From Lachnospiraceae bacterium (GTDB taxonomy: Bacteria > Bacillota > Clostridia > Lachnospirales > Lachnospiraceae): a DNA stretch of 32,000 bases. Location of the stretch: contig SVDZ01000003.1 in assembly GCA_015057625.1 (NCBI GenBank), positions 196,180 through 228,179 on the forward strand, written 5' to 3'. Positions 112-19,001 of this stretch are shown here, one piece after another. The notes beneath the pieces were generated by a model. That model was not told the origin of the DNA and ran no database searches. It was given only the letters and a program-made list of their open reading frames with translations. Made by a program: the position numbers and the translations under genes. Each line of letters opens with the position of its first letter. Position 1 is the first letter of the stretch.

Positions 112-184
112 ATAACTTACAGAGTAAATTATCTCATGACTGACGCGCATTTCGCAGCAAGAACGCTGAGGCGTTCTTGAATTA
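112..184 (+). repeat. 73-bp hairpin element, copy A (5'-truncated), in the feoAB leader
   Basis: Identical over all 73 nt to 15061-15133, with unrelated flanks. Contains the hairpin aagaacgc-tgag-gcgttctt (159-178). Only part of the first hairpin is present. Confidence 0.85.
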
Positions 185-2616: not shown

Positions 2617-2686
2617 GGGAAATGTAATGTTTTTGGGAGATGTAATGTTTTTTTGAGAGATGTAATGTTTTTTGAGAAATGTAATG
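2617..2686. repeat. Four tandem 18-20 bp repeats with core ATGTAATG
   Basis: ATGTAATG occurs at 2622, 2640, 2660 and 2679, each preceded by G(G/A)GA(A/G) and followed by a T-run. Located directly after the feoB stop. Confidence 0.85.
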
Positions 2687-2793: not shown

Positions 2794-3144
2794 TGCAACA
2801 TATTTTTGAATTTCTTGATTTATGTTGTACATTTTTTCTTCCAATTTTTGTCCGCATACAACATAGAATTCATTTTCCTAATCTATGTTGTACATTTTTT
2901 CTTCCAATTTTTGTCCGCATACAACATAGATTTAATTTTCTTAATCCATGCTGTATTTTCTCCTCCAACAATTTTTTTCACGTACAGCATAGATTTAATT
3001 TTCTTAATCCATGTTGTATTTTTTGCTCCAACAATTTTTTTCACGTACAACATAGATTTAATTTTCTTAATCCATGTTGTATTTTTTGTTCCTGCAACTA
3101 TTTTTATGTACAACATAGAATTGAATTTCTTATTATATGTTGTA
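2794..3144. repeat. 63-bp-period tandem array 1 (6 units)
   Basis: T(A/G)CA(A/G)CAT at 2794, 2857, 2920, 2983, 3046 and 3109. ATG(T/C)TGTA at 2822, 2885, 2948, 3011, 3074 and 3137. All spacings are exactly 63 bp. 36-bp blocks alternate with 27-bp T-rich blocks, and these are mutually similar (2830-2856 is identical to 2893-2919). Confidence 0.95.
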
Positions 3145-3162
3145 CCCGCTCTTTACACACAC

Positions 3163-3299: not shown

Positions 3300-5486
3300 C
3301 TAATATCCCACTCTCACATAATTTCCATTTACTATCGAGAGTACTTCATTGTACAAATAATTATGACCACTTTCGTTTGGCATCAATTTATTCCTGTACA
3401 AATAGTCTGCTATTTCGTAGACTGATTTTTTTGAAATTTCACTGTACTTGTATGTGCCATTTTTCAACTTCACATATGCTCTAATCATCAGCACACTACT
3501 GTAAAACTCTTTAGTTTTTATGTTCTTCATGGTCATGGCATAACTTTGCGCTCCGGCAATTTCACTGTGAATCGCAGTTATTCTTCCATTGTCAGTAGCT
3601 TTGAAACTATATACATTACTGTTGTTACTTTGAATAACCATCTCAGATTCATTTGCATATTCTTTAAGTCCGTATATCAAACCTTTTTCCACCACTTCAC
3701 TTTTTGGATCTGCCACGGAATAAATTGTTCTGAAACCTTCATATTGGGCATTGAACTGGAACCCGTTAATTTCCACTCTCGACTGCTCATATGACGCTCC
3801 CGTTGTTGTCTCCTGCGCCTTTGAAGTTTCCTCTGCTCCCGTTGTTGTCTCCTGCGCCTTTGTTGTCTCCTCTACCTCGGTTCTCTCTCTCAAAGACACC
3901 TCTGTAATTTTGACGGTATGCCCCGGAAGGTTGCTCACTCCGTCTATGGTTCCAAGACATATGGTACACTTAACACCTGTTTTTGTAACAGCCTGGGCAG
4001 GAATTATAATTTCAACTTCCTGAGTTTTTCCTGCCTCTAACGAAATTGTTTGCGATGCAAGAGTTTCGTAATTATTTGACGGTATCTGAAAATGAATTGT
4101 CACGCTTCTGCTTACTGAAGAATTCAGCTTACATCTGAACACATAGTCTTTTCCTGCATTTATCACGATATCCGCTTTTGAAACGTGGGGTTGCCAATTA
4201 CTCTCCCCCATGCTTTGAATTGTAACCGTGCCATCAGCACCATAAGTGTTTGAGTTTTGGTAGTTATAAAAAGAAAGATTATCAATCAGATTTTCTCCCT
4301 CTTCGTATTCAATGTCATGAATAGGCTCTTCGTCCTTCTCACTTGCAATCATTGACGAAATGAGATTTGGGAATAAAGGCACATATGAATATCTGTCAAA
4401 TATGCCAAAGCACTCCTCACCCTGTCTGTCAGCGGTGGTTCCATTGTCCCACCACACACAAGTAATTCCATATTTTCTTGCTGCCTTAACATAATATTTT
4501 GCATGAACTATTCTAGAATCAAGATTGCCCTTATTGGTGGTTCCGAATTCGCCAATAATTACAGGTGTTCCCTTCGACACAAACTTGTCGTAAAGCTTTT
4601 TCATCTGATTGTCCATTGCAATTTTGTCAGCTTCGCTGCCCCATGTGTTAACACCGCTGTCTTTCATTGCAAATTCATACGGCGAATATGCGTGAACCGA
4701 CAATATGACATTGGGATCATTTGGCTTCACAAAACCGTTTAACGCGCTATCCGTAATTGCCGCTGCCACTGTGGGAAGCATAACTTTTCTGATGCTGTTG
4801 TTTCCGCCGGTTGCTCTAATTGCATTAAGTGCAACCTGATTATAATAATTCAATACTGCTCTTGATTCCTCAGTTCCGCCACTCCACTCAGTAGGACTTC
4901 CTTCCTCCCTTGGCTCATTTAGCACTTCAAAAATCAGATTTCCACCATACTTATTAAATCTTGTAGCAATCTGAGTCCAAAGAGCATTGATAAGTTCAGC
5001 GTTTTGCTCCTTGTGGTTGTAATTCGGTATAATATGTTCTCCTTCATGATGGGTATTGAGAATAACATACATCCCCTCATCCAATGCGTAATTTACTACC
5101 TCTTCAACCCTGTTCATCCATGAGGCATTAACTGTGTAATCCGGTGCATTTCCCAGTTTATATGTCCAGGTAGTAGGAATTCTGACCGTTCTAAATCCAT
5201 GTTCCTTCAGTCCGTGAAGCAATTCTCTGGTAATGACAGGCTTTCCCCAGTTAGTCTCTGTCGCATTTGCTCCCTTAGCGGAATCAAGAGAATTTCCGAT
5301 ATTAATCCCCACTCCCATATCATCCACCATTTGTTGTGCCGTAATATCAAATGTAACCAGTGCATTTTCGTTTGCCTGTGCCATAACCGAATTCTTCATC
5401 TCTGTTTTACTAACTCCCGTAACCAACATCGCCCCACAAACCAAAAATGTGGTAACTCTCTTTCCGTACAATCCTAATTTCTTCAT
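3300..5486 (-). CDS. Secreted multidomain GH5 glycoside hydrolase (endoglucanase/cellulase family)
   Basis: Signal peptide. GH5 hallmarks FEVLNEPR (acid/base Glu) and PVIIGEFG (nucleophile Glu). These are followed by a beta-rich putative carbohydrate-binding region, a duplicated ETT(K/S)AQETTTGA linker and a ~170-aa C-terminal domain of unknown type. GGAG lies 8 nt before ATG 5486; ATG 5492 is too close to the SD. Confidence 0.9.
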   Translation of the reverse strand: MKKLGLYGKRVTTFLVCGAMLVTGVSKTEMKNSVMAQANENALVTFDITAQQMVDDMGVGINIGNSLDSAKGANATETNWGKPVITRELLHGLKEHGFRTVRIPTTWTYKLGNAPDYTVNASWMNRVEEVVNYALDEGMYVILNTHHEGEHIIPNYNHKEQNAELINALWTQIATRFNKYGGNLIFEVLNEPREEGSPTEWSGGTEESRAVLNYYNQVALNAIRATGGNNSIRKVMLPTVAAAITDSALNGFVKPNDPNVILSVHAYSPYEFAMKDSGVNTWGSEADKIAMDNQMKKLYDKFVSKGTPVIIGEFGTTNKGNLDSRIVHAKYYVKAARKYGITCVWWDNGTTADRQGEECFGIFDRYSYVPLFPNLISSMIASEKDEEPIHDIEYEEGENLIDNLSFYNYQNSNTYGADGTVTIQSMGESNWQPHVSKADIVINAGKDYVFRCKLNSSVSRSVTIHFQIPSNNYETLASQTISLEAGKTQEVEIIIPAQAVTKTGVKCTICLGTIDGVSNLPGHTVKITEVSLRERTEVEETTKAQETTTGAEETSKAQETTTGASYEQSRVEINGFQFNAQYEGFRTIYSVADPKSEVVEKGLIYGLKEYANESEMVIQSNNSNVYSFKATDNGRITAIHSEIAGAQSYAMTMKNIKTKEFYSSVLMIRAYVKLKNGTYKYSEISKKSVYEIADYLYRNKLMPNESGHNYLYNEVLSIVNGNYVRVGY

Positions 5487-5717
5487 CAACATATCTCCTC
5501 GTCTAATGATGCTTTATTCAAGACTCTCTCCCCTTTGCTTTTAAACCGCTCAAAATACCTAACACATGTTATGAGTTATGAGCAGCATTTCGTTCGTGCT
5601 CATTTTCCTTCCGATAAGTTACATTATATACAATTTTTAACCAACTGCATACCTTGAAATAATAATTGAAAATGTGTTATTATAACTATCAATATTTATT
5701 AAAGTAGGGAGGTTATT

Positions 5718-7460
5718 ATGAAACAATCTAAAATTATTTCGACATTACTTATCTGTTCGTTGGCAGCAAGTTCTTTATTTATCACTCCTGCTGACGCTGC
5801 GAAAAAAGATGCCTCTAAGGTTTCTTTTTCAAACAAAGTAATATCCCTTAACGTGGGGGCAAGAAAAACTATCAAACTTAAAGGCGTTAACAAAAAAATT
5901 AAGTGGAAGATCAAAAACACTAAAATTGCAAAAATAGTTGCCAAAAAAGGGAAATTCAAAAATAAGATTACTATCGAGGGGCTGAAAAAAGGCAGTACAA
6001 AAATCACTGCCAAATATAAGAGCCAAAAATATACTGCTAAGATTAAAGTATTAACAGCTTTCAAGGATGAGAAAGAGGCTACAACAACTAAATCAGGAAC
6101 AAGCCCAAATGCTGCAGGAACAAACGGTAACACAAACATTACTGAAACTACAGCTAATGTCAAAGATCCTTTAACAATGTCAGTTTCCGGAAAGGTTAAT
6201 AAAGATGACAATGGCGATTATGTATTAGCTCTTAATTACACTATCTCGGAAAATGGCGGAGATGGATCCTATGTCTTCACTCCTGGTTTAGGGATTAAAC
6301 TCGAGAAGAAAGTTGATAATAATTGGGTTGATCTTCCAATTAGATATGGCTATTTCAATCAAACATTAGTATACCTTTCTCGCTCTTACAGCAATACGCT
6401 TCCAATATACAGCGGCGAGGCATATGAAGGCATTGCGCATTATCCGGAAGCAATTGCCATTCCTACCATAGAGTCAGGCACATACAGATTTTCTCAGACA
6501 GTTTCCGATTGGCAAAATAATCTTTCTGTTACTGTTTCATCTGAATTTACCATTCATTTAGGCGAGACTGCTACAGAATCTGAAACTACTTCATATAATC
6601 TCGAAGATCATGTAGCAATGACTGTTTCAGGAAACATTGATACAGATGAAAACGGTGATTATATATTCTATCTTGATTATACGATTAAAACAAATGCAAA
6701 GGATGCATACCTCACTTTTACTCATGGTAATAACCTTAAACTTCAGAAGAAAGTTGACGATAATTGGGTTGAAATTCCAATGTGGAGCGGAGCATTCCAT
6801 GAAACATTAGTATACCTTAGTCCATATTTTGATCATACAGAAACACTCACAATATACAGCGGTAAAAAATATGAAGACAAGGGTTGGCTTTTAGAGGCAA
6901 TTGCCATTCCTTCTATAGAAAACGGCACTTACAGATTTGTTCAGTATCTATACGACCACAATAGCAATACTAGTATTCCGGTTTCAGCTGAATTTACTAT
7001 CAACACCGGTGAGACTATCGAACATGAAATCAAAGCTGTCTCTTTAATATGCGACAAATCATATAAATTGGAAAAAGGGGAAGACTACTCAGTGTTACCA
7101 TTCACTTTTTCAATCAATAACACTACTGATTCATCGATAATAGTCGAGAATTATTTCAGATTACTAGAAGTTAAAAAGGGAGATGAATGGGAGGAAGTTC
7201 CTGTGTTTGTGGGTCCACATAATGAGATGCTGTATACAATCAGATCAGGCGAGGCCGCAAACTACAATATGCCAATAACCGTGGGACTTAACCCATATGA
7301 ACTTGATAATATTCCATTATATTCGGTTATAATACAGAATTTAGAACCCGGTCATTACAGATACACTCATTACTACTCAACGGACCTTACAGATTTAATT
7401 CCTGTTTCAGCTGAATTTGATGTAATAGAAGATACTACAGAGGCTGAGACCACTAACTAA
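5718..7460 (+). CDS. Secreted protein: signal peptide, Big_2-like Ig domain and three ~135-aa repeats of an uncharacterised beta-rich domain
   Basis: AGGGAGG RBS. Signal peptide ending ...PADA. Lys-rich Big_2-like segment (VISLNVGARKTIKLKG...ITAKYKSQKYTAKIKV). Three internal repeats start near nt 6165, 6603 and 7023, sharing ...L(E/Q)KKVD(N/D)NWV(D/E)(L/I)P...GTYRF...(V/P)S(S/A)EF(T/D). Confidence 0.85.
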   Translation: MKQSKIISTLLICSLAASSLFITPADAAKKDASKVSFSNKVISLNVGARKTIKLKGVNKKIKWKIKNTKIAKIVAKKGKFKNKITIEGLKKGSTKITAKYKSQKYTAKIKVLTAFKDEKEATTTKSGTSPNAAGTNGNTNITETTANVKDPLTMSVSGKVNKDDNGDYVLALNYTISENGGDGSYVFTPGLGIKLEKKVDNNWVDLPIRYGYFNQTLVYLSRSYSNTLPIYSGEAYEGIAHYPEAIAIPTIESGTYRFSQTVSDWQNNLSVTVSSEFTIHLGETATESETTSYNLEDHVAMTVSGNIDTDENGDYIFYLDYTIKTNAKDAYLTFTHGNNLKLQKKVDDNWVEIPMWSGAFHETLVYLSPYFDHTETLTIYSGKKYEDKGWLLEAIAIPSIENGTYRFVQYLYDHNSNTSIPVSAEFTINTGETIEHEIKAVSLICDKSYKLEKGEDYSVLPFTFSINNTTDSSIIVENYFRLLEVKKGDEWEEVPVFVGPHNEMLYTIRSGEAANYNMPITVGLNPYELDNIPLYSVIIQNLEPGHYRYTHYYSTDLTDLIPVSAEFDVIEDTTEAETTN

Positions 7461-7464
7461 CACT

Positions 7465-7512
7465 ATTGAAGATGATTTAACAATGTCAGTTTCAGGAAAA
7501 ATTGTAGAATAA
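7465..7512 (+). other. Out-of-frame vestige of a fourth repeat unit after the stop codon
   Basis: att gaa gat gat tta aca atg tca gtt tca gga aaa att gta gaa taa reads IEDDLTMSVSGKIVE*. This copies the start of repeat 1 (KDPLTMSVSGKVNK, nt ~6167-6205) in a different frame from the CDS. Confidence 0.55.
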
Positions 7513-13857: not shown

Positions 13858-14211
13858 CTAAAGACCTGAATGATAAATATTCATAGCCAATTGAAAAATA
13901 AAGAATAATACAGCTAATATACAAAATCCTCTAACTATCCATTTTGTTTTCTTTGATACCTCTGATACTGAAGTACCATCTTCCATTACTATGTAATCAT
14001 TTTCTTCCATTATCGCTTTTGCTTTTTCAAAATCCTGTTCTTTAACTTTTACATCTTTAAAGAGATTGAAATCACCACCTAACGTTCTCATGTAGCCTCC
14101 AACTCCTTCTTCTGTAATCAGGACTTCCACGCCATTGCTCTCAAGCACTCCCTTTAAAATTGCAATTTCAGGTTCACTATTTGAAGAATATATTTTTTTC
14201 ATATTAATCAT
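13858..14211 (-). CDS. Small membrane-anchored protein with an N-terminal DUF2007-like (putative signal-transducing) domain
   Basis: 117 aa. The N-terminal ~75 aa resemble the DUF2007 fold signature (EIAILKGVLESNGVEV...FEKAKAIMEE). One C-terminal TM segment (WIVRGFCILAVLFFIFQLAMNIY). The start could be ATG 14211 or 14202. Confidence 0.6.
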   Translation of the reverse strand: MINMKKIYSSNSEPEIAILKGVLESNGVEVLITEEGVGGYMRTLGGDFNLFKDVKVKEQDFEKAKAIMEENDYIVMEDGTSVSEVSKKTKWIVRGFCILAVLFFIFQLAMNIYHSGL

Positions 14212-14446
14212 CCGCCTTTCATGTTAAATTGAGATAGCACTCTCTGCACATCTTTTCAAAATATATTTCTATTTACTATTACGCCGATACACACTTCTTT
14301 AATATGCGCGTATCATTAATAATAATTATACATATTTTTTCATTTCCATAAATGGGTGAAAAAAACGAAATATAAAGGGATAATTCGCTTTTAAGTTGTA
14401 AATACTACTCCGAAACACAAATTACATATCAGGAACAAAAATTGTT

Positions 14447-14887
14447 TGTGGTACGTACTCCCAAGAAACTTATTCGGAGAGAATATGCGTATCAGAATAT
14501 AAATTTGCTTGTGGTACGTATGCCCAAGAAGCTTATTTGGAGAGAATATACGTATCAGAATTAATAATTGCTTGTGGTACGTACTCCCAAGAAGCTTATT
14601 TCGATTGTATATACGTATCAGAATTAAAATTTGTTTGTGGTACGTACTCCCAAGAAACTTATATAGATTGTATATGCGTATCAGAATTTAAAATTGCTTG
14701 TGGTACGTACTCCCAAGAAGCTTATTTGGAGAGAATATGCGTATCAGAATTAAAATTTGTTTGTGGTACGTACTCCCAAGAAACTTATATAGATTGTATA
14801 TGCGTATCAGAATTAAAATTTGCTTGTGGTACGTACTCCCAAGAAACTTATATAGATTGTATATACGTATCAGAATTAATAATCCCC
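14447..14887. repeat. 63-bp-period tandem array 2 (7 units)
   Basis: TGTGGTACGTA starts at 14447, 14510, 14573, 14636, 14699, 14762 and 14825, exactly 63 bp apart. Each unit has the palindromes GTACGTAC and AT(A/G)CGTAT and a 20-nt variable segment of two types plus a hybrid. Degenerate partial units flank the array (about 14300-14330, 14420-14446 and 14890-14900). Confidence 0.95.
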
Positions 14888-14922
14888 CTATAATACGTAT
14901 ATTCATTTTTCCAATTACAAGC

Positions 14923-14969
14923 AAAACTTTATATTAACGAATAATTATTACTTAATATAAAGTTTTTTT
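14923..14969 (+). terminator. Terminator-like hairpin downstream of array 2
   Basis: Perfect 15-bp A/T-rich stem aaaactttatattaa (14923-14937) / ttaatataaagtttt (14952-14966). The T-run continues to 14969. There is no T-run in the - orientation. Confidence 0.55.
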
Positions 14970-14978
14970 GTTACCTTT

Positions 14979-14987
14979 TGGTATAAT
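14979..14987 (+). promoter_or_regulatory. Extended -10 promoter for the ECF sigma transcript
   Basis: TGgTATAAT (TG 14979-14980, TATAAT 14982-14987). No good -35 is present. The predicted start near 14995 gives a ~160-nt leader containing element copy B. Confidence 0.45.
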
Positions 14988-15054
14988 CTACATATATTAG
15001 TATACAAGCTTGTTTTACTTGCTACTTATAGAATCATAACTCTCAAAATGTCAG

Positions 15055-15133
15055 CATGAGATAACTTACAGAGTAAATTATCTCATGACTGACGCGCATT
15101 TCGCAGCAAGAACGCTGAGGCGTTCTTGAATTA
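15055..15133 (+). repeat. Hairpin element, copy B (full length), in the ECF sigma leader
   Basis: 15-bp stem catgagataacttac (15055-15069) / gtaaattatctcatg (15073-15087) with one C.A mismatch and loop aga. Second hairpin aagaacgc-tgag-gcgttctt (15108-15127). 15061-15133 is identical to 112-184. Confidence 0.85.
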
Positions 15134-15156
15134 CATAAGAATGGAGAATTAGTGAA

Positions 15157-15669
15157 TTGAAATTTTTCGAAGACATATGTCGAGAATATTATTCCCGCAT
15201 TTACAAATATGTCTTGCGTATGACCTGTCAGAAAGAAACTGCAGAAGACATTACACAAGAAGTTTTTCTGATTGCATATCAGAAGGGAAATATATTCTTA
15301 AATCATGAAAATCATTTGGGCTTTTTGTATACAACTGCCCACAATTTAATAATGGATGAATACAGGAAACAAAAAAAGCAGATTCTCACAGACGTGGAGA
15401 AAATGGATTTGAAATCTCCGGATGTTTTTGAAACACTTTGCAACAAATACAGTAGCAAAGTGGATATTGAAGACCAACTAAAATCAGTTCTGTCAATTCT
15501 GACTCCTTTTGAGCAGACCTTGTATGAACAATATTATGAGCAAAAAATTCCTATGGTGGAGATTGCAAAAGCTTTAGGAAAAAGTAACTCATCCATAAAA
15601 ATGAACTATATGCGACTGAGGAACAAACTTAAATCGCATATAAAAGAACTCGAGTTAGATTTATTCTAA
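15157..15669 (+). CDS. ECF-type sigma-70 family RNA polymerase sigma factor
   Basis: Region 2 (YYSRIYKYVLRMTCQKETAEDITQEVFLIAYQK...FLYTTAHNLIMDEYRK) and region 4 HTH (LTPFEQTLYEQYYEQKIPMVEIAKALGKSNSSIKMNYMRLRNKLK). TTG start with GGAGA 9 nt upstream. Confidence 0.88.
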   Translation: MKFFEDICREYYSRIYKYVLRMTCQKETAEDITQEVFLIAYQKGNIFLNHENHLGFLYTTAHNLIMDEYRKQKKQILTDVEKMDLKSPDVFETLCNKYSSKVDIEDQLKSVLSILTPFEQTLYEQYYEQKIPMVEIAKALGKSNSSIKMNYMRLRNKLKSHIKELELDLF

Positions 15670-15747: not shown

Positions 15748-16824
15748 ATGAAAGATAATAATATTGCATCTTTAAAACAACAAATTAACACTGCAATAGA
15801 AAATCAGGACTTCGAAAAAGTCGAACAGCTCTCTGAAGAGTTAGGCGCTCTTCTTAATTTGGACGAGTCCGACTGCGAAATGCCTGAAGATTTCTTATTG
15901 CGGATTAAACGAAACAATAAGGAGAAAAAAACTATGAATATGAAAAAAATAGTTATACGAAGTATAGCGGCTGCGGCAATTATTGTACTGGCAATTTCGG
16001 GTGGAGCCATTGCTAAAAATCTGAATATTATGATGAGAAAAAATCTTACAGTACAAACAAATGAGGATGGTTCAAAAGACGCTTATCTCTTTTATGATAA
16101 AAATGATGAGCTGAAATATTTATATATATCTTCTGATAAATCTTTTTTCCTTCCGGCAGGTTATTCTTTATTAAGCGACTCGATTTGGTCTTCAGAAGAA
16201 GAACTAAAAGATGCGAAAGCCCAACAATATAGTAATAACAATCCTGAAGAAGGCGGATATGACTCTATTTCCTACGAAAAACCGACAAAAGATGATTTAT
16301 GGTTATCCAAAATAACAACAACCTATCACTATCCTTCTAATTGCGAAGCTGAAGATGGTGATTATGATAAAGTAATAGCTTCAGAATATGAATATGAAAA
16401 CTTAAAATCCTTAATAATAGATCAACACTTATATAATATTTTTGCAAATATTCCAGATATTAACCATCACTTTTCAATTACTTCATCTGCATATTATAAT
16501 CACTACGAAAACAGCGATTTTTATCTTGATACTTACGAAGAATTACTCGAAACTTTCAAATATGGAAGTGGATATATAAATCTGAATATATTTTCAAATC
16601 ACACTTCAGGTGATAATATCGGTCTTGTTTGGGTAATAAAAGATATCTCAAATCAAAGAGAATATAATGCTAAAAACGGTAAGACCTATCAATTAGTTGA
16701 TGTAAAAAGTGAAGGAAAAACTTATACCAAACTTCTTGTGGGGGGTGACTCCTATATGTGGATGTTTACATTCAGCGATTTGACTGAAGATGAAATTCAC
16801 GATTTCATTGATACATTAAAGTAA
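15748..16824 (+). CDS. Single-pass membrane protein, putative cognate anti-sigma factor
   Basis: AAGGAG RBS. ~65-aa cytoplasmic N-terminus, one TM (IVIRSIAAAAIIVLAISGGAIA) and a ~270-aa extracytoplasmic domain with no family I recognise. The role is assigned by position only, and no HxxxCxxC ZAS motif is present. Confidence 0.55.
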   Translation: MKDNNIASLKQQINTAIENQDFEKVEQLSEELGALLNLDESDCEMPEDFLLRIKRNNKEKKTMNMKKIVIRSIAAAAIIVLAISGGAIAKNLNIMMRKNLTVQTNEDGSKDAYLFYDKNDELKYLYISSDKSFFLPAGYSLLSDSIWSSEEELKDAKAQQYSNNNPEEGGYDSISYEKPTKDDLWLSKITTTYHYPSNCEAEDGDYDKVIASEYEYENLKSLIIDQHLYNIFANIPDINHHFSITSSAYYNHYENSDFYLDTYEELLETFKYGSGYINLNIFSNHTSGDNIGLVWVIKDISNQREYNAKNGKTYQLVDVKSEGKTYTKLLVGGDSYMWMFTFSDLTEDEIHDFIDTLK

Positions 16825-18889: not shown

Positions 18890-19001
18890 GAATACAATCA
18901 CCTCTCATTGGATATATCAGTATATAACAGTATATATCTGTTACTAACACTATATAACAGTACATAACTGTTTGTCAATATTTTTTCACTTACGCATAAA
19001 T

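What the first reader, a model, noticed from the sequence alone, without database searches (positions are those of the whole stretch)
14447..14887. Seven-unit tandem array with exact 63-bp period upstream of an ECF sigma gene (CRISPR-like geometry, no cas, related 'spacers')
Seven head-to-tail units start at 14447, 14510, 14573, 14636, 14699, 14762 and 14825, with no indel across 441 bp. About 43 nt of each unit is nearly invariant. That part contains two 8-bp palindromes with a TACGTA core: GTACGTAC, and AT(A/G)CGTAT 34 bp later. An internal 20-nt segment comes in two alternating types, (a/g)cttatt(t/c)ggagagaatat and acttatatagattgtatat, plus one hybrid (unit 3). So the array has been shuffled by recombination rather than by spacer acquisition. 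Degenerate partial units flank it on both sides. Several points are worth noting. First, 63 bp is about 6 helical turns, so every motif lies on the same DNA face. Second, the array lies in a 945-bp gene-free island and is followed on the + strand by a perfect 15-bp hairpin with a T-run (14923-14969). The overall layout (tandem repeats, terminator, promoter, protein gene) formally resembles type III toxin-antitoxin loci such as ToxIN, where 36-nt repeats and a terminator precede toxN. Here the downstream gene is a sigma factor, not a nuclease. Third, units 1, 4, 6 and 7 contain GAAAC-N18-CGTAT, which is reminiscent of ECF-type promoters (sigW-like TGAAAC-N16-CGTA). The spacer is 1-2 nt too long, so the idea of an array of ECF-promoter-like decoy sites next to an ECF sigma gene is only a weak hypothesis. 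I know of no described element with this structure.
Basis: partly seen in the sequence, partly recalled or inferred. Interest (0 to 1): 0.8.

Follow-up and report, generated by a model that had tools for sequence, protein, structure and literature searches.

The report
Dispersed 63-bp tandem repeat family
The seven-unit 63-bp array is real, but it is one copy of a lineage-specific, non-coding repeat family that also sits inside a fatty-acid operon 20 kb away and is missing from the same sigma-factor locus in related species, so it looks like repetitive DNA rather than a dedicated sigma-factor control device.

Summary
There are seven head-to-tail 63-bp units at 14447-14887 with no indel, degenerate edge units, and an AT-only hairpin with a T-run.

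The source is an uncultured Lachnospiraceae MAG. Three results change the interpretation:
- A homologous array (C, about 8.7 units, 45/63 identical in register, z=28) lies about 20 kb away. It is inverted in the chromosome and sits between accC and accD/A. It shares the terminal partial unit and a roughly 27-nt tail, and it is also followed by an AT hairpin.
- Two related species keep the DUF2007 | ECF-sigma/anti-sigma synteny and the conserved sigmaA-type TGnTATAAT promoter, but they lack the array. About 560 bp is extra in this lineage.
- There is no coding signal, no Rfam match, no RNA covariation and no consistent folding strand. The ECF-like GAAAC-N18-CGTAT motif is not conserved in array C.

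Best reading: a BOX/MIRU-like interspersed minisatellite that was copied as a block and homogenised by unequal recombination.

Oddities that remain:
- A third, unrelated array (A, 2796-3145) also has a 63-bp period.
- All 26 TACGTA sites in 45 kb lie inside arrays B and C.

Copy number across the whole genome could not be measured. Interest is modest.

The parts
14403..14446 (+). Degenerate left-edge partial unit (...ACATATCAGGAACAAAAATTGTT). Its sequence is closer to array C than to the interior of array B.
   Evidence: This is the first part of the ~560 bp that is absent from the orthologous locus L128.
14447..14887 (+). Seven 63-bp units (array B). Across each unit junction lies an imperfect inverted repeat, TACGTAYCAGA-N13-TGTGGTACGTA. 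Each unit also has AAGAA(A/G) and a 14-20-nt variable interior.
14888..14927 (+). Terminal partial unit plus a tail ending in CAAAAC. This part is homologous to the end of array C.
   Evidence: alignment; 16/27 identical before the CAAAAC anchor, p=0.002. L127 shows no such similarity.
14923..14969 (+). AT-only near-perfect palindrome (arms 14923-14944 and 14945-14966) followed by T7. It is a possible weak intrinsic terminator or insulator. The inner 35 bp is an insertion relative to L127, which reads GCAAAAC|TTTTTTTGTTACC.
   Evidence: -12.9 kcal/mol, z=-4.6. Not called by the terminator scan.
14963..14987 (+). Conserved sigmaA-type promoter block of the sigma operon, TTTTTTTGTTACCTTTTGGTATAAT (extended -10 TGGTATAAT at 14979-14987). 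It is present in all three species. It is not part of the repeat element.
   Evidence: invariant columns; sequence read
15061..15133 (+). 73-nt dispersed two-hairpin element in the sigma 5' leader. It is identical to 112-184 in the feoAB leader. It is a separate repeat family.
15157..15669 (+). ECF-type sigma factor gene (TTG start). It is a neighbour of the repeat element, not a component of it.
15748..16824 (+). 358-aa protein with no family match; putative anti-sigma factor by position. NCBI names it 'hypothetical protein E7254_05190 [Lachnospiraceae bacterium]'.
13858..14211 (-). DUF2007 gene, transcribed divergently from the island.
2796..3145 (+). Array A: 5.6 units of 63 bp with a sequence unrelated to B. 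Each unit is a 14-bp-stem hairpin followed by a T-run (terminator-like). It lies between the convergent feoB and GH5 cellulase genes.
   Evidence: no homology to B or C.: -18 kcal/mol, z=-9.7.

Best explanation
Array B is one locus of a lineage-specific, non-coding, interspersed tandem-repeat family in an uncultured Lachnospiraceae genome. In kind it is comparable to pneumococcal BOX elements or mycobacterial MIRUs.

The element is a block made of:
- a degenerate edge unit;
- n modules of 63 bp, each carrying an imperfect inverted repeat built around TACGTA;
- a terminal partial unit plus a ~27-nt tail.
An AT-only hairpin follows the block.

Shown:
- At least two such blocks exist in one genome (B upstream of the ECF sigma operon, C between accC and accD/A).
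- They are homologous in register, including the tail.
- The block is absent from the orthologous sigma locus in the two nearest available relatives.

Inferred:
- The block was copied to a new site by transposition or ectopic duplication.
- Each array was then expanded and homogenised by unequal recombination or replication slippage.
- It has no dedicated role in sigma-factor control.
- Any effect on neighbouring genes is generic. Examples are hairpins in co-transcribed RNA, a weak terminator or insulator in front of the sigma promoter, or extra spacing between divergent promoters.
For: - Second homologous array: L129 5020-5568, 8.7 units, 93% internal match. The B and C consensus units are 45/63 identical with no gap, with an alignment z=28 against shuffles.
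- Shared terminal partial unit and tail, p=0.002.
- Both arrays are followed by an AT-only hairpin and point toward the downstream co-oriented gene.
- Concerted evolution: identity within an array (88% and 93%) exceeds identity between arrays (71%). The left-edge unit of B is C-like. There are 126/189-bp higher-order periods.
- Gain in this lineage: L128 (anti-sigma 64% identical) and L127 (46% identical) keep the synteny and the promoter but have no unit (nhmmer; shuffle test).
- Non-coding: variable columns fall 6:5:7 over codon positions 1, 2 and 3. Different frames are open in B and in C. There is no start codon.
- No Rfam match.
- The inverted repeat is 95% paired but has zero compensatory changes, and its covariation is no better than shuffles. 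The + strand folds better in B and the - strand folds better in most C units.
- The same genome region is rich in other small repeats (array A, the 73-nt element, 15- and 19-bp repeats). Pneumococcal BOX, RUP and SPRITE elements cluster in the same way (PMC3049150).
Against: - Only two loci of the family were seen in about 50 kb sampled. Genome-wide copy number is unknown because the one genome-collection scan found only a chance hit and the one metagenome scan was wasted on an over-general pattern.
- No terminal inverted repeats, target-site duplication or transposase were identified, so mobility is inferred, not shown.
- The inverted-repeat half-sites are somewhat better conserved between B and C than the rest of the unit (3 differences in 22 columns against 15 in 41; about p=0.08 by my own estimate). 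This could reflect function.
- All 26 TACGTA sites in 45 kb lie within B and C.
- The exact 63-bp period is shared with the unrelated array A. These last two points are not explained by neutral repeat dynamics.
Confidence: 0.6

Rival explanations
1. Protein-binding array. Each unit presents an inverted pair of 11-bp half-sites (TACGTAYCAGA / TGTGRTACGTA). The pairs repeat every 63 bp, about 6 helical turns, so a dimeric DNA-binding protein would coat one face of the DNA. This would form a regulatory, titrating or architectural nucleoprotein complex, analogous to sopC or iteron arrays.
For: - The half-sites are the best-conserved part between B and C.
- The G-G mismatch position is conserved in both arrays, and variation is limited to transitions.
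- TACGTA is otherwise absent from 44 kb of flanking genome.
- Residual twist per unit is within -23 to +10 degrees of six full turns in a wedge model.
Against: - No candidate binding protein is linked to both loci, and no ParA/ParB/Rep genes are present.
- The array is dispensable at the orthologous locus of relatives.
- Predicted intrinsic bend per unit is no different from shuffled units (parameters recalled from memory).
- The TACGTA depletion is not significant against a Markov expectation (0 observed against 2.5 expected).
Confidence: 0.15
2. Transcribed repeat RNA. The + strand of the array is transcribed and ends at the AT hairpin with its T-run. The RNA acts as a multi-module RNA, such as a type III antitoxin-like RNA, a sponge, or a cis element for mRNA stability or attenuation.
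For: - The layout is array, then hairpin with T7, then gene, at both loci, in the sense orientation of the downstream gene.
- Array C lies between co-directional acc genes, so it is probably co-transcribed with them.
- The junction hairpin in B reaches -10.2 kcal/mol with G-U pairs on the + strand only.
Against: - No sigma-70-like promoter stands out upstream of B. The scan found 8 sites against 5.8 expected from shuffles, all 9 of 12.
- There is no covariation.
- Most C units fold better on the opposite strand (-13.6 against -6.3 kcal/mol).
- The two interior types of B have incompatible inner folds.
- There is no nuclease or toxin partner.
- No Rfam family matches.
Confidence: 0.1
3. ECF-promoter decoy. 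Units carry GAAAC-N18-CGTAT sites that titrate, or are transcribed by, the sigma factor encoded next to the array.
For: Four exact GAAAC-N18-CGTAT matches, all inside the array. The array sits next to an ECF sigma gene.
Against: - The motif is present in only 4 of 7 units; the other three read GAAGC.
- The homologous array C has GAAAT...CGTAC at those columns and sits in a fatty-acid operon.
- Relatives with the same sigma operon lack the array.
- The conserved promoter of the operon is sigmaA-type.
Confidence: 0.03
4. Degenerate coding repeat (21-aa units, a RiPP-like multi-core precursor, or a pseudogene), or an assembly artefact.
For: - 63 = 21 codons, and frame 0 is open from 14402 to 14893.
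- Gene callers annotate a 118-aa ORF there.
- Some assemblies break at the arrays.
Against: - There is no ATG/GTG/TTG start or ribosome-binding site before 14537, and no third-position bias among variable columns.
- The frame that is open in B has stops in C, and the reverse is also true.
- No protein homologues were found in three database searches.
- Four independent assemblies give the identical array, including its unit-specific SNPs.
Confidence: 0.04

Closest known systems
BOX elements of Streptococcus pneumoniae (boxA, n x boxB, boxC), with the co-clustering RUP and SPRITE repeats
   Same: - It is a composite, non-coding, interspersed intergenic element.
- The middle module is a tandem array of variable copy number (7 against about 8.7 units here).
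- The units are rich in hairpins.
- It is found in clusters with other small repeats, including terminator-like ones. Array A and the AT hairpins resemble SPRITE in form.
- The description of BOX is taken from PMC3049150.
   Different: - There is no sequence relationship.
- The unit is 63 bp rather than about 45 bp (the boxB length is from my memory).
- No boxA/boxC-type terminal inverted repeats or target-site duplication were recognised.
- Only two loci were seen.
- No matching IS transposase was identified.
Mycobacterial interspersed repetitive units (MIRU-VNTR)
   Same: - These are tandem intergenic minisatellites of tens of bp, dispersed at several loci.
- Array C lies between co-directional genes of an operon, in the sense orientation.
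   Different: - MIRUs insert at start codons and carry an ORF that is translationally coupled to the flanking gene (PMC12548453).
- Here no common reading frame or start exists.
- Array B lies in a divergent promoter region.
Type III toxin-antitoxin loci (ToxIN, CptIN, TenpIN)
   Same: Formal layout only: tandem direct repeats, then a hairpin with a T-run, then a gene of about 170 codons.
   Different: - The downstream gene is an ECF sigma factor, or accD/A at the second locus, not an endoribonuclease.
- About 190 bp, with a separate conserved promoter, lies between the hairpin and the gene.
- There is no RNA covariation.
CRISPR arrays
   Same: The period is about 63 bp, with a conserved part and a more variable part, and the conserved part is partly palindromic.
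   Different: - The 'spacers' are only 14-20 nt, homologous to each other, and of two types.
- No cas genes were found.
- The same 'spacer' type recurs in array C.
Plasmid centromere or iteron arrays (F sopC 43-bp repeats, R6K-type iterons; from my own knowledge)
   Same: These are indel-free tandem direct repeats, each containing a short inverted repeat. An AT-rich hairpin region lies next to the array.
   Different: - The context is chromosomal, with housekeeping genes.
- No rep or parA/parB genes are present.
- There are no matches in plasmid or phage collections.

Membership tests
CRISPR array | Identical repeats separated by unique spacers of similar length (about 30-40 nt) | tested here: not met
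   The variable segment is 14-20 nt, comes in two related types plus one hybrid, and is homologous to the same columns of array C.
CRISPR array | cas genes or a recognisable leader nearby | tested here: not met
   Pfam scan of 20 window proteins and PADLOC scan of 5 neighbours. The only hit is a noise-level Cas10_Id match to the sigma factor (15 bits, E=0.0015).
Type III toxin-antitoxin (ToxIN/CptIN/TenpIN) | The repeat array lies immediately upstream of a ToxN/CptN/TenpN-type endoribonuclease gene | tested here: not met
   The downstream gene is an ECF sigma factor (TIGR02937, 69.7 bits against a cutoff of 42.9). There is no PADLOC hit. The second array precedes accD/A.
Type III toxin-antitoxin (ToxIN/CptIN/TenpIN) | An intrinsic terminator lies between the repeats and the toxin gene | tested here: inconclusive
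   An AT-only hairpin with T7 is present (-12.9 kcal/mol). The terminator scan does not call it. Its T-run belongs to a conserved promoter-upstream block.
Type III toxin-antitoxin (ToxIN/CptIN/TenpIN) | Each repeat unit folds into a conserved RNA structure on the transcribed strand | tested here: not met
   No compensatory changes, and covariation is no better than shuffles. The favoured strand differs between B and C.
BOX-like composite interspersed repeat / MITE | Several dispersed copies in one genome | tested here: inconclusive
   Two homologous loci (B and C) were found in about 50 kb sampled. Genome-wide count was not obtainable.
BOX-like composite interspersed repeat / MITE | Internal module present as a tandem array whose copy number differs between loci | tested here: met
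   7 units in B against 8.7 in C.
BOX-like composite interspersed repeat / MITE | Distinct terminal modules with terminal inverted repeats and a target-site duplication | tested here: inconclusive
   A shared right-hand tail is supported (p=0.002). No TIR or TSD was seen at the B insertion boundaries on reading. No formal search was done.
BOX-like composite interspersed repeat / MITE | Sequence homology to boxA/boxB/boxC | not tested
MIRU-type minisatellite | Located between genes of an operon, oriented with transcription | tested here: inconclusive
   True for C, which lies between accC and accD/A with all three on the same strand. Not true for B, which lies in a divergent intergenic region.
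MIRU-type minisatellite | The unit carries an ORF coupled to the stop or start codon of the flanking genes | tested here: not met
   The open frames differ between B and C, there is no start codon, and there is no codon-position bias.
   The spacing is N18. The motif is present in 4 of 7 units. The corresponding columns read GAAAT...CGTAC in array C. The cognate promoter of this particular sigma factor is unknown.
Plasmid iteron or centromere array | A linked rep or parA/parB gene and a plasmid or phage context | tested here: not met
   No such domains in the window or flanks. No match in plasmid or phage collections or in viral contigs.
Any Rfam RNA family | Covariance-model match | tested here: not met
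   0 hits at gathering thresholds in the window. The permissive search of 14200-15200 gave only a noise match, E=0.84.

The most novel reading that the evidence does not exclude
The B/C arrays, and perhaps the unrelated array A that shares the same 63-bp period, could be functional helically phased scaffolds. In this reading, clusters of TACGTA-centred inverted repeats, a hexamer otherwise absent from the surrounding 44 kb, are bound by a dedicated dimeric protein or targeted by a TACGTA-specific modification or restriction activity. They would then act as chromosomal organising, insulating or decoy sites, and the 63-bp period would be selected because it keeps every site on one face of the helix.
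Probability: 0.1. Interest if true: 0.6.

Novelty: new member of a known kind. Interest (0 to 1): 0.3.

Why it matters
If the main reading is right, this adds an uncharacterised interspersed minisatellite family from an uncultured Lachnospiraceae. Practical consequences:
- The arrays break short-read assemblies.
- Gene callers annotate spurious ORFs across them (118, 194 and 223 aa).
- The arrays could serve as strain markers.
- Such arrays should not be read as regulatory devices of whichever gene they happen to sit next to.

It would matter more if the shared 63-bp period and the confinement of TACGTA to the arrays turn out to reflect a protein that reads them.

Tried and rejected
- **Genome-collection scan.** The conserved 21-mer TGTGGTACGTAYKCCCAAGAA gave one chance hit, in a Saccharibacteria rplW gene. 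The source species, or its array, is therefore not among the representative genomes.
- **Metagenome scan.** None is related to B or C by blastn or nhmmer.
- **Viral contigs.** The 21-mer and a 35-nt B/C consensus both gave 0 hits.
- **Plasmids and phages.** blastn found no match.
- **Protein databases as a proxy for other arrays.** The B frame-0 ORF gave nothing. A chimeric query built from the open frames of C, B and A gave nothing. The full HMMER search of representatives returned only unrelated proteins with 21-aa periodicity.
- **Homology of array A to B or C.** None detected.
- **Degenerate units in L127 and L128.** A resemblance seen by eye was not supported by shuffles or by nhmmer.
- **Intrinsic DNA curvature as the reason for the 63-bp period.** A wedge model gave a per-unit bend within the shuffled distribution for A, B and C. 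The parameters were recalled from memory. One search timed out.
- **RNA covariation.** Not supported. One search was a malformed structure string.
- **Look-ups of FeoB (788 aa) and the cellulase (730 aa).** Both failed because the recorded gene starts differ. The look-ups were repeated successfully through other proteins.
- **Literature searches for 63-bp intergenic repeats.** Nothing relevant was found.

Full report
**1.

Tandem Repeats Finder reports 14437-14879 with period 63, 7.0 copies, 88% matches and 0% indels, plus a 189-bp higher-order period. Printing the sequence in 63-bp rows from 14447 shows seven units in perfect register with degenerate partial units on both sides. Forty-five of 63 columns are invariant. 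GTACGTAC at columns 5-12 and AT(A/G)CGTAT at columns 39-46 are as described. The interior occurs as type 1 in units 1, 2 and 5, as type 2 in units 4, 6 and 7, and as a hybrid in unit 3.

The island between the DUF2007 gene (13858-14211, minus strand) and the sigma gene (15157-15669, plus strand) is 945 bp. The sigma factor is ECF-type (TIGR02937, 69.7 bits against a cutoff of 42.9). The palindrome at 14923-14966 followed by T7 exists. However, its stem is almost purely A/T, and the terminator scan did not call it.

The whole intergenic region is identical in four independent metagenome assemblies. All of these are the same strain (at least 99.99% identical). The array is therefore reproducible, but nothing can be said about variation in unit number. 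One unitig-style assembly breaks exactly at the first unit, and its other contig starts inside the 73-nt dispersed element in the sigma leader.

**2. Source and context**

NCBI names the neighbouring 358-aa protein as a hypothetical protein of a Lachnospiraceae bacterium MAG. The window is ordinary chromosome. It carries feoAB, a GH5 cellulase, an Ig-domain protein, a two-component system with a sugar ABC transporter, MetRS, MgtE and other housekeeping genes. There are no cas, rep, par or toxin genes, no tRNA genes, and no Rfam match.

**3. The orthologous locus in relatives lacks the array**

The anti-sigma candidate has only two homologues in the large protein collection. Both of their contigs keep the arrangement DUF6440-DUF2007 (minus strand) | sigma-anti-sigma (plus strand). 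Their intergenic regions are about 480-600 bp, against 945 bp here, and contain no 63-bp repeat. A profile of the units finds nothing there. A resemblance I thought I saw in L127 is not better than shuffles.

The alignments show two conserved blocks. One lies next to DUF2007. The other is a sigmaA-type promoter, TTTTTTTGTTACCnTyTGsTATAATCT (extended -10 at 14979-14987), together with the ribosome-binding site and TTG start. In L128 these blocks abut. In the window about 560 bp (14403-14962) lies between them. This stretch holds the edge unit, the seven units, the tail and the hairpin.

L128 is closer to the window than L127 (anti-sigma 64% against 46% identical), and both lack the array. Gain in the window's lineage is therefore the parsimonious reading. 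This is an inference.

**4. A second, homologous array exists elsewhere in the same genome**

Extending about 9 kb beyond the right end of the window revealed an 8.7-unit, 63-bp array at L129 5020-5568 with 93% internal matches. I call it array C. Its consensus is 45/63 identical to the consensus of B, in the same register and without gaps. The alignment score lies 28 sd above shuffles.

Array C lies between accC and a fused accD/accA gene, on the same strand as both. In chromosome coordinates it is inverted relative to B and about 20 kb away.

Beyond the last full unit, both arrays share a partial unit and a ~27-nt tail ending in CAAAAC (16/27 identical, p=0.002; L127 shows none). Each is then followed by an AT-only hairpin of different sequence. 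The degenerate left-edge unit of B (CAGGAACAAAAATTGTT) is closer to the C consensus than to the interior of B. This is the pattern expected when the interior of an array is homogenised and the edges are not.

Identity within an array (88% and 93%) exceeds identity between arrays (71%). These are the signatures of a composite repeat copied as a block and then evolving in concert at each site.

Array C is unstable in assemblies. One scaffold has an N gap inside it, and one contig ends inside it.

**5. Coding, RNA and ECF readings tested**

*Coding.* Frame 0 is open across B, and gene callers annotate ORFs over B (118 aa) and C (194 or 223 aa). However, variable columns fall 6:5:7 over codon positions 1, 2 and 3. 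No start codon precedes 14537. The frames that are open in B carry stops in C, and the reverse is also true. Three protein-database searches found no real relatives.

*RNA.* The inverted repeat TACGTAYCAGA-N13-TGTGRTACGTA pairs in 95% of cells. It has no compensatory double changes, and its covariation is not above shuffles. In B the + strand folds better (-10.2 against -1.5 kcal/mol). In most C units the opposite strand folds better (-13.6 against -6.3 kcal/mol). The two interior types of B fold differently.

*ECF decoy.* GAAAC-N18-CGTAT is found in four units only. The corresponding columns read GAAAT...CGTAC in C.

*ToxI-like.* The genes downstream of the two arrays are an ECF sigma factor and accD/A, and there is no PADLOC hit.

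**6. What it most likely is**

It is a lineage-specific interspersed minisatellite. In kind it is closest to pneumococcal BOX elements. Those have flanking modules around a tandem array of boxB of variable number, and they occur in clusters with other small repeats, including terminator-like SPRITE elements (PMC3049150). It is also close in kind to MIRUs (PMC12548453).

The region around the arrays is similarly crowded with other repeats:
- array A (2796-3145);
- a modular 73-nt two-hairpin element, present at least three times in the window and also in the relatives;
- 15-bp and 19-bp microarrays.

Membership of BOX or MIRU as families is not claimed. There is no sequence relationship, no TIR or TSD was recognised, and the MIRU-type coupled ORF is absent.

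The steps 'copied as a block' and 'homogenised by unequal recombination' are inferred from the pattern of similarity. A generic cis effect, such as a weak terminator or insulator in front of the sigma promoter or hairpins in the acc transcript, is possible but untested.

**7. What remains odd**

- Three non-coding arrays in about 50 kb all have a period of exactly 63 bp, yet A shows no homology to B or C. A wedge-model calculation gives per-unit bends that are indistinguishable from shuffled units. Special intrinsic curvature therefore does not explain the period. The parameters were recalled from memory.
- All 26 TACGTA hexamers in 45 kb lie in B and C, and none lie in the other 44 kb. The expectation is 14.3 from base composition but only 2.5 from a maximal-order Markov model, so this is suggestive and not significant.
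- The half-sites are slightly better conserved between B and C than the rest of the unit.

These points keep a protein-binding reading alive at about 15%.

**8. Limits**

Genome-wide copy number, distribution in other taxa, variation in unit number, transcription and protein binding could not be tested. The genome-collection scan found only a chance hit.

**Verdict**

The array is interesting as a new repeat family with a few unexplained regularities. The proposed links to the sigma factor, to type III toxin-antitoxin systems and to CRISPR are not supported.

Noticed in passing
window 2796-3145: Array A is a second 63-bp tandem array of 5.6 units, with no sequence homology to the array in the finding. 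Each unit is a 14-bp-stem hairpin (-18 kcal/mol, z=-9.7) followed by a T-run, so the array is a tandem series of terminator-like elements. It lies between the convergent feoB and GH5 cellulase genes.
   Followed up: partly
window 112-184, 15061-15133, 2683-2723 (inverted); L127 1024-1085, 8947-9013, about 640-680; L128 1235-1301: - A modular dispersed element made of two or three hairpins around the linker CTGACGCGCATTTCGCAGC.
- 73 nt are 100% identical in the 5' leaders of feoAB and of the sigma gene.
- A copy in a related species is 98.5% identical, although genes in that species are only about 80% identical.
- Other copies show compensatory-looking hairpin changes (GAGATAAC.../AAGCTAAC...; AAGAACGC/AAGACTCGC).
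- At the sigma locus its orientation is opposite in L127.
- No Rfam match.
   Followed up: partly
L129 5020-5568 (about 35.3-35.8 kb in window coordinates, opposite strand), with L129 4930-5025: - Array C is homologous to the array in the finding. It lies inside the acc gene cluster.
- It is preceded by a 15-bp x 6.4 micro-array (CGGGAATTATAGTTG) that resembles the variable segment of the unit itself and overlaps the end of accC.
- Assemblies disagree here: L130 has an N gap in the array and L131 ends in it.
   Followed up: yes
window plus flanks (45 kb): All 26 TACGTA sites lie inside arrays B and C. There are none in the other 44 kb (14.3 expected from base composition, 2.5 from a Markov model). 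AGATCT is also absent.
   Followed up: partly
window 3300-7460 compared with L127 2843-6763 and L128 3487-3839: In both related species the GH5 cellulase and Ig-domain genes directly follow the anti-sigma gene. In the window genome this block has moved about 10 kb away and now abuts array A. The ECF sigma/anti-sigma pair may therefore originally have been linked to a cellulase locus.
   Followed up: no
window 14930-14964 compared with L127 926-945: The inner 35 bp of the AT hairpin is an insertion relative to L127. L127 reads GCAAAAC directly followed by TTTTTTTGTTACC. The apparent terminator T-run is therefore an older, conserved promoter-upstream sequence.
   Followed up: partly
window 2622-2686: A 19-bp x 3.4 tandem repeat (ATGTAATGTTTTTTGAGAG) lies immediately downstream of feoB, next to the inverted copy of the dispersed element.
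   Followed up: no
window 18912-18972; L127 9046-9114: 10/20/30-bp direct repeats (TATATAACAGT-like) lie upstream of the GntR / ABC-2 transporter operon. They are conserved in the related species, which suggests operator sites.
   Followed up: no
L040 4345-4640, L122 8053-8194, L094 552-830: Other metagenome contigs carry intergenic arrays of about 63 bp built around GGTACGTA...TACGTACC inverted repeats with variable loops, or around a TTGGTACGTACCAA palindrome. nhmmer finds no relation to B or C. The search pattern selected for such arrays, so no enrichment can be claimed.
   Followed up: partly
L139 1014-1165: A further 63-bp repeat (2.4 copies) about 9 kb to the left of the window lies inside an 853-aa ORF with no Pfam match. 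It is probably a 21-residue coding repeat.
   Followed up: no
window 6142-7504: The Big_14 protein gene contains three domain repeats of about 441-447 bp.
   Followed up: no
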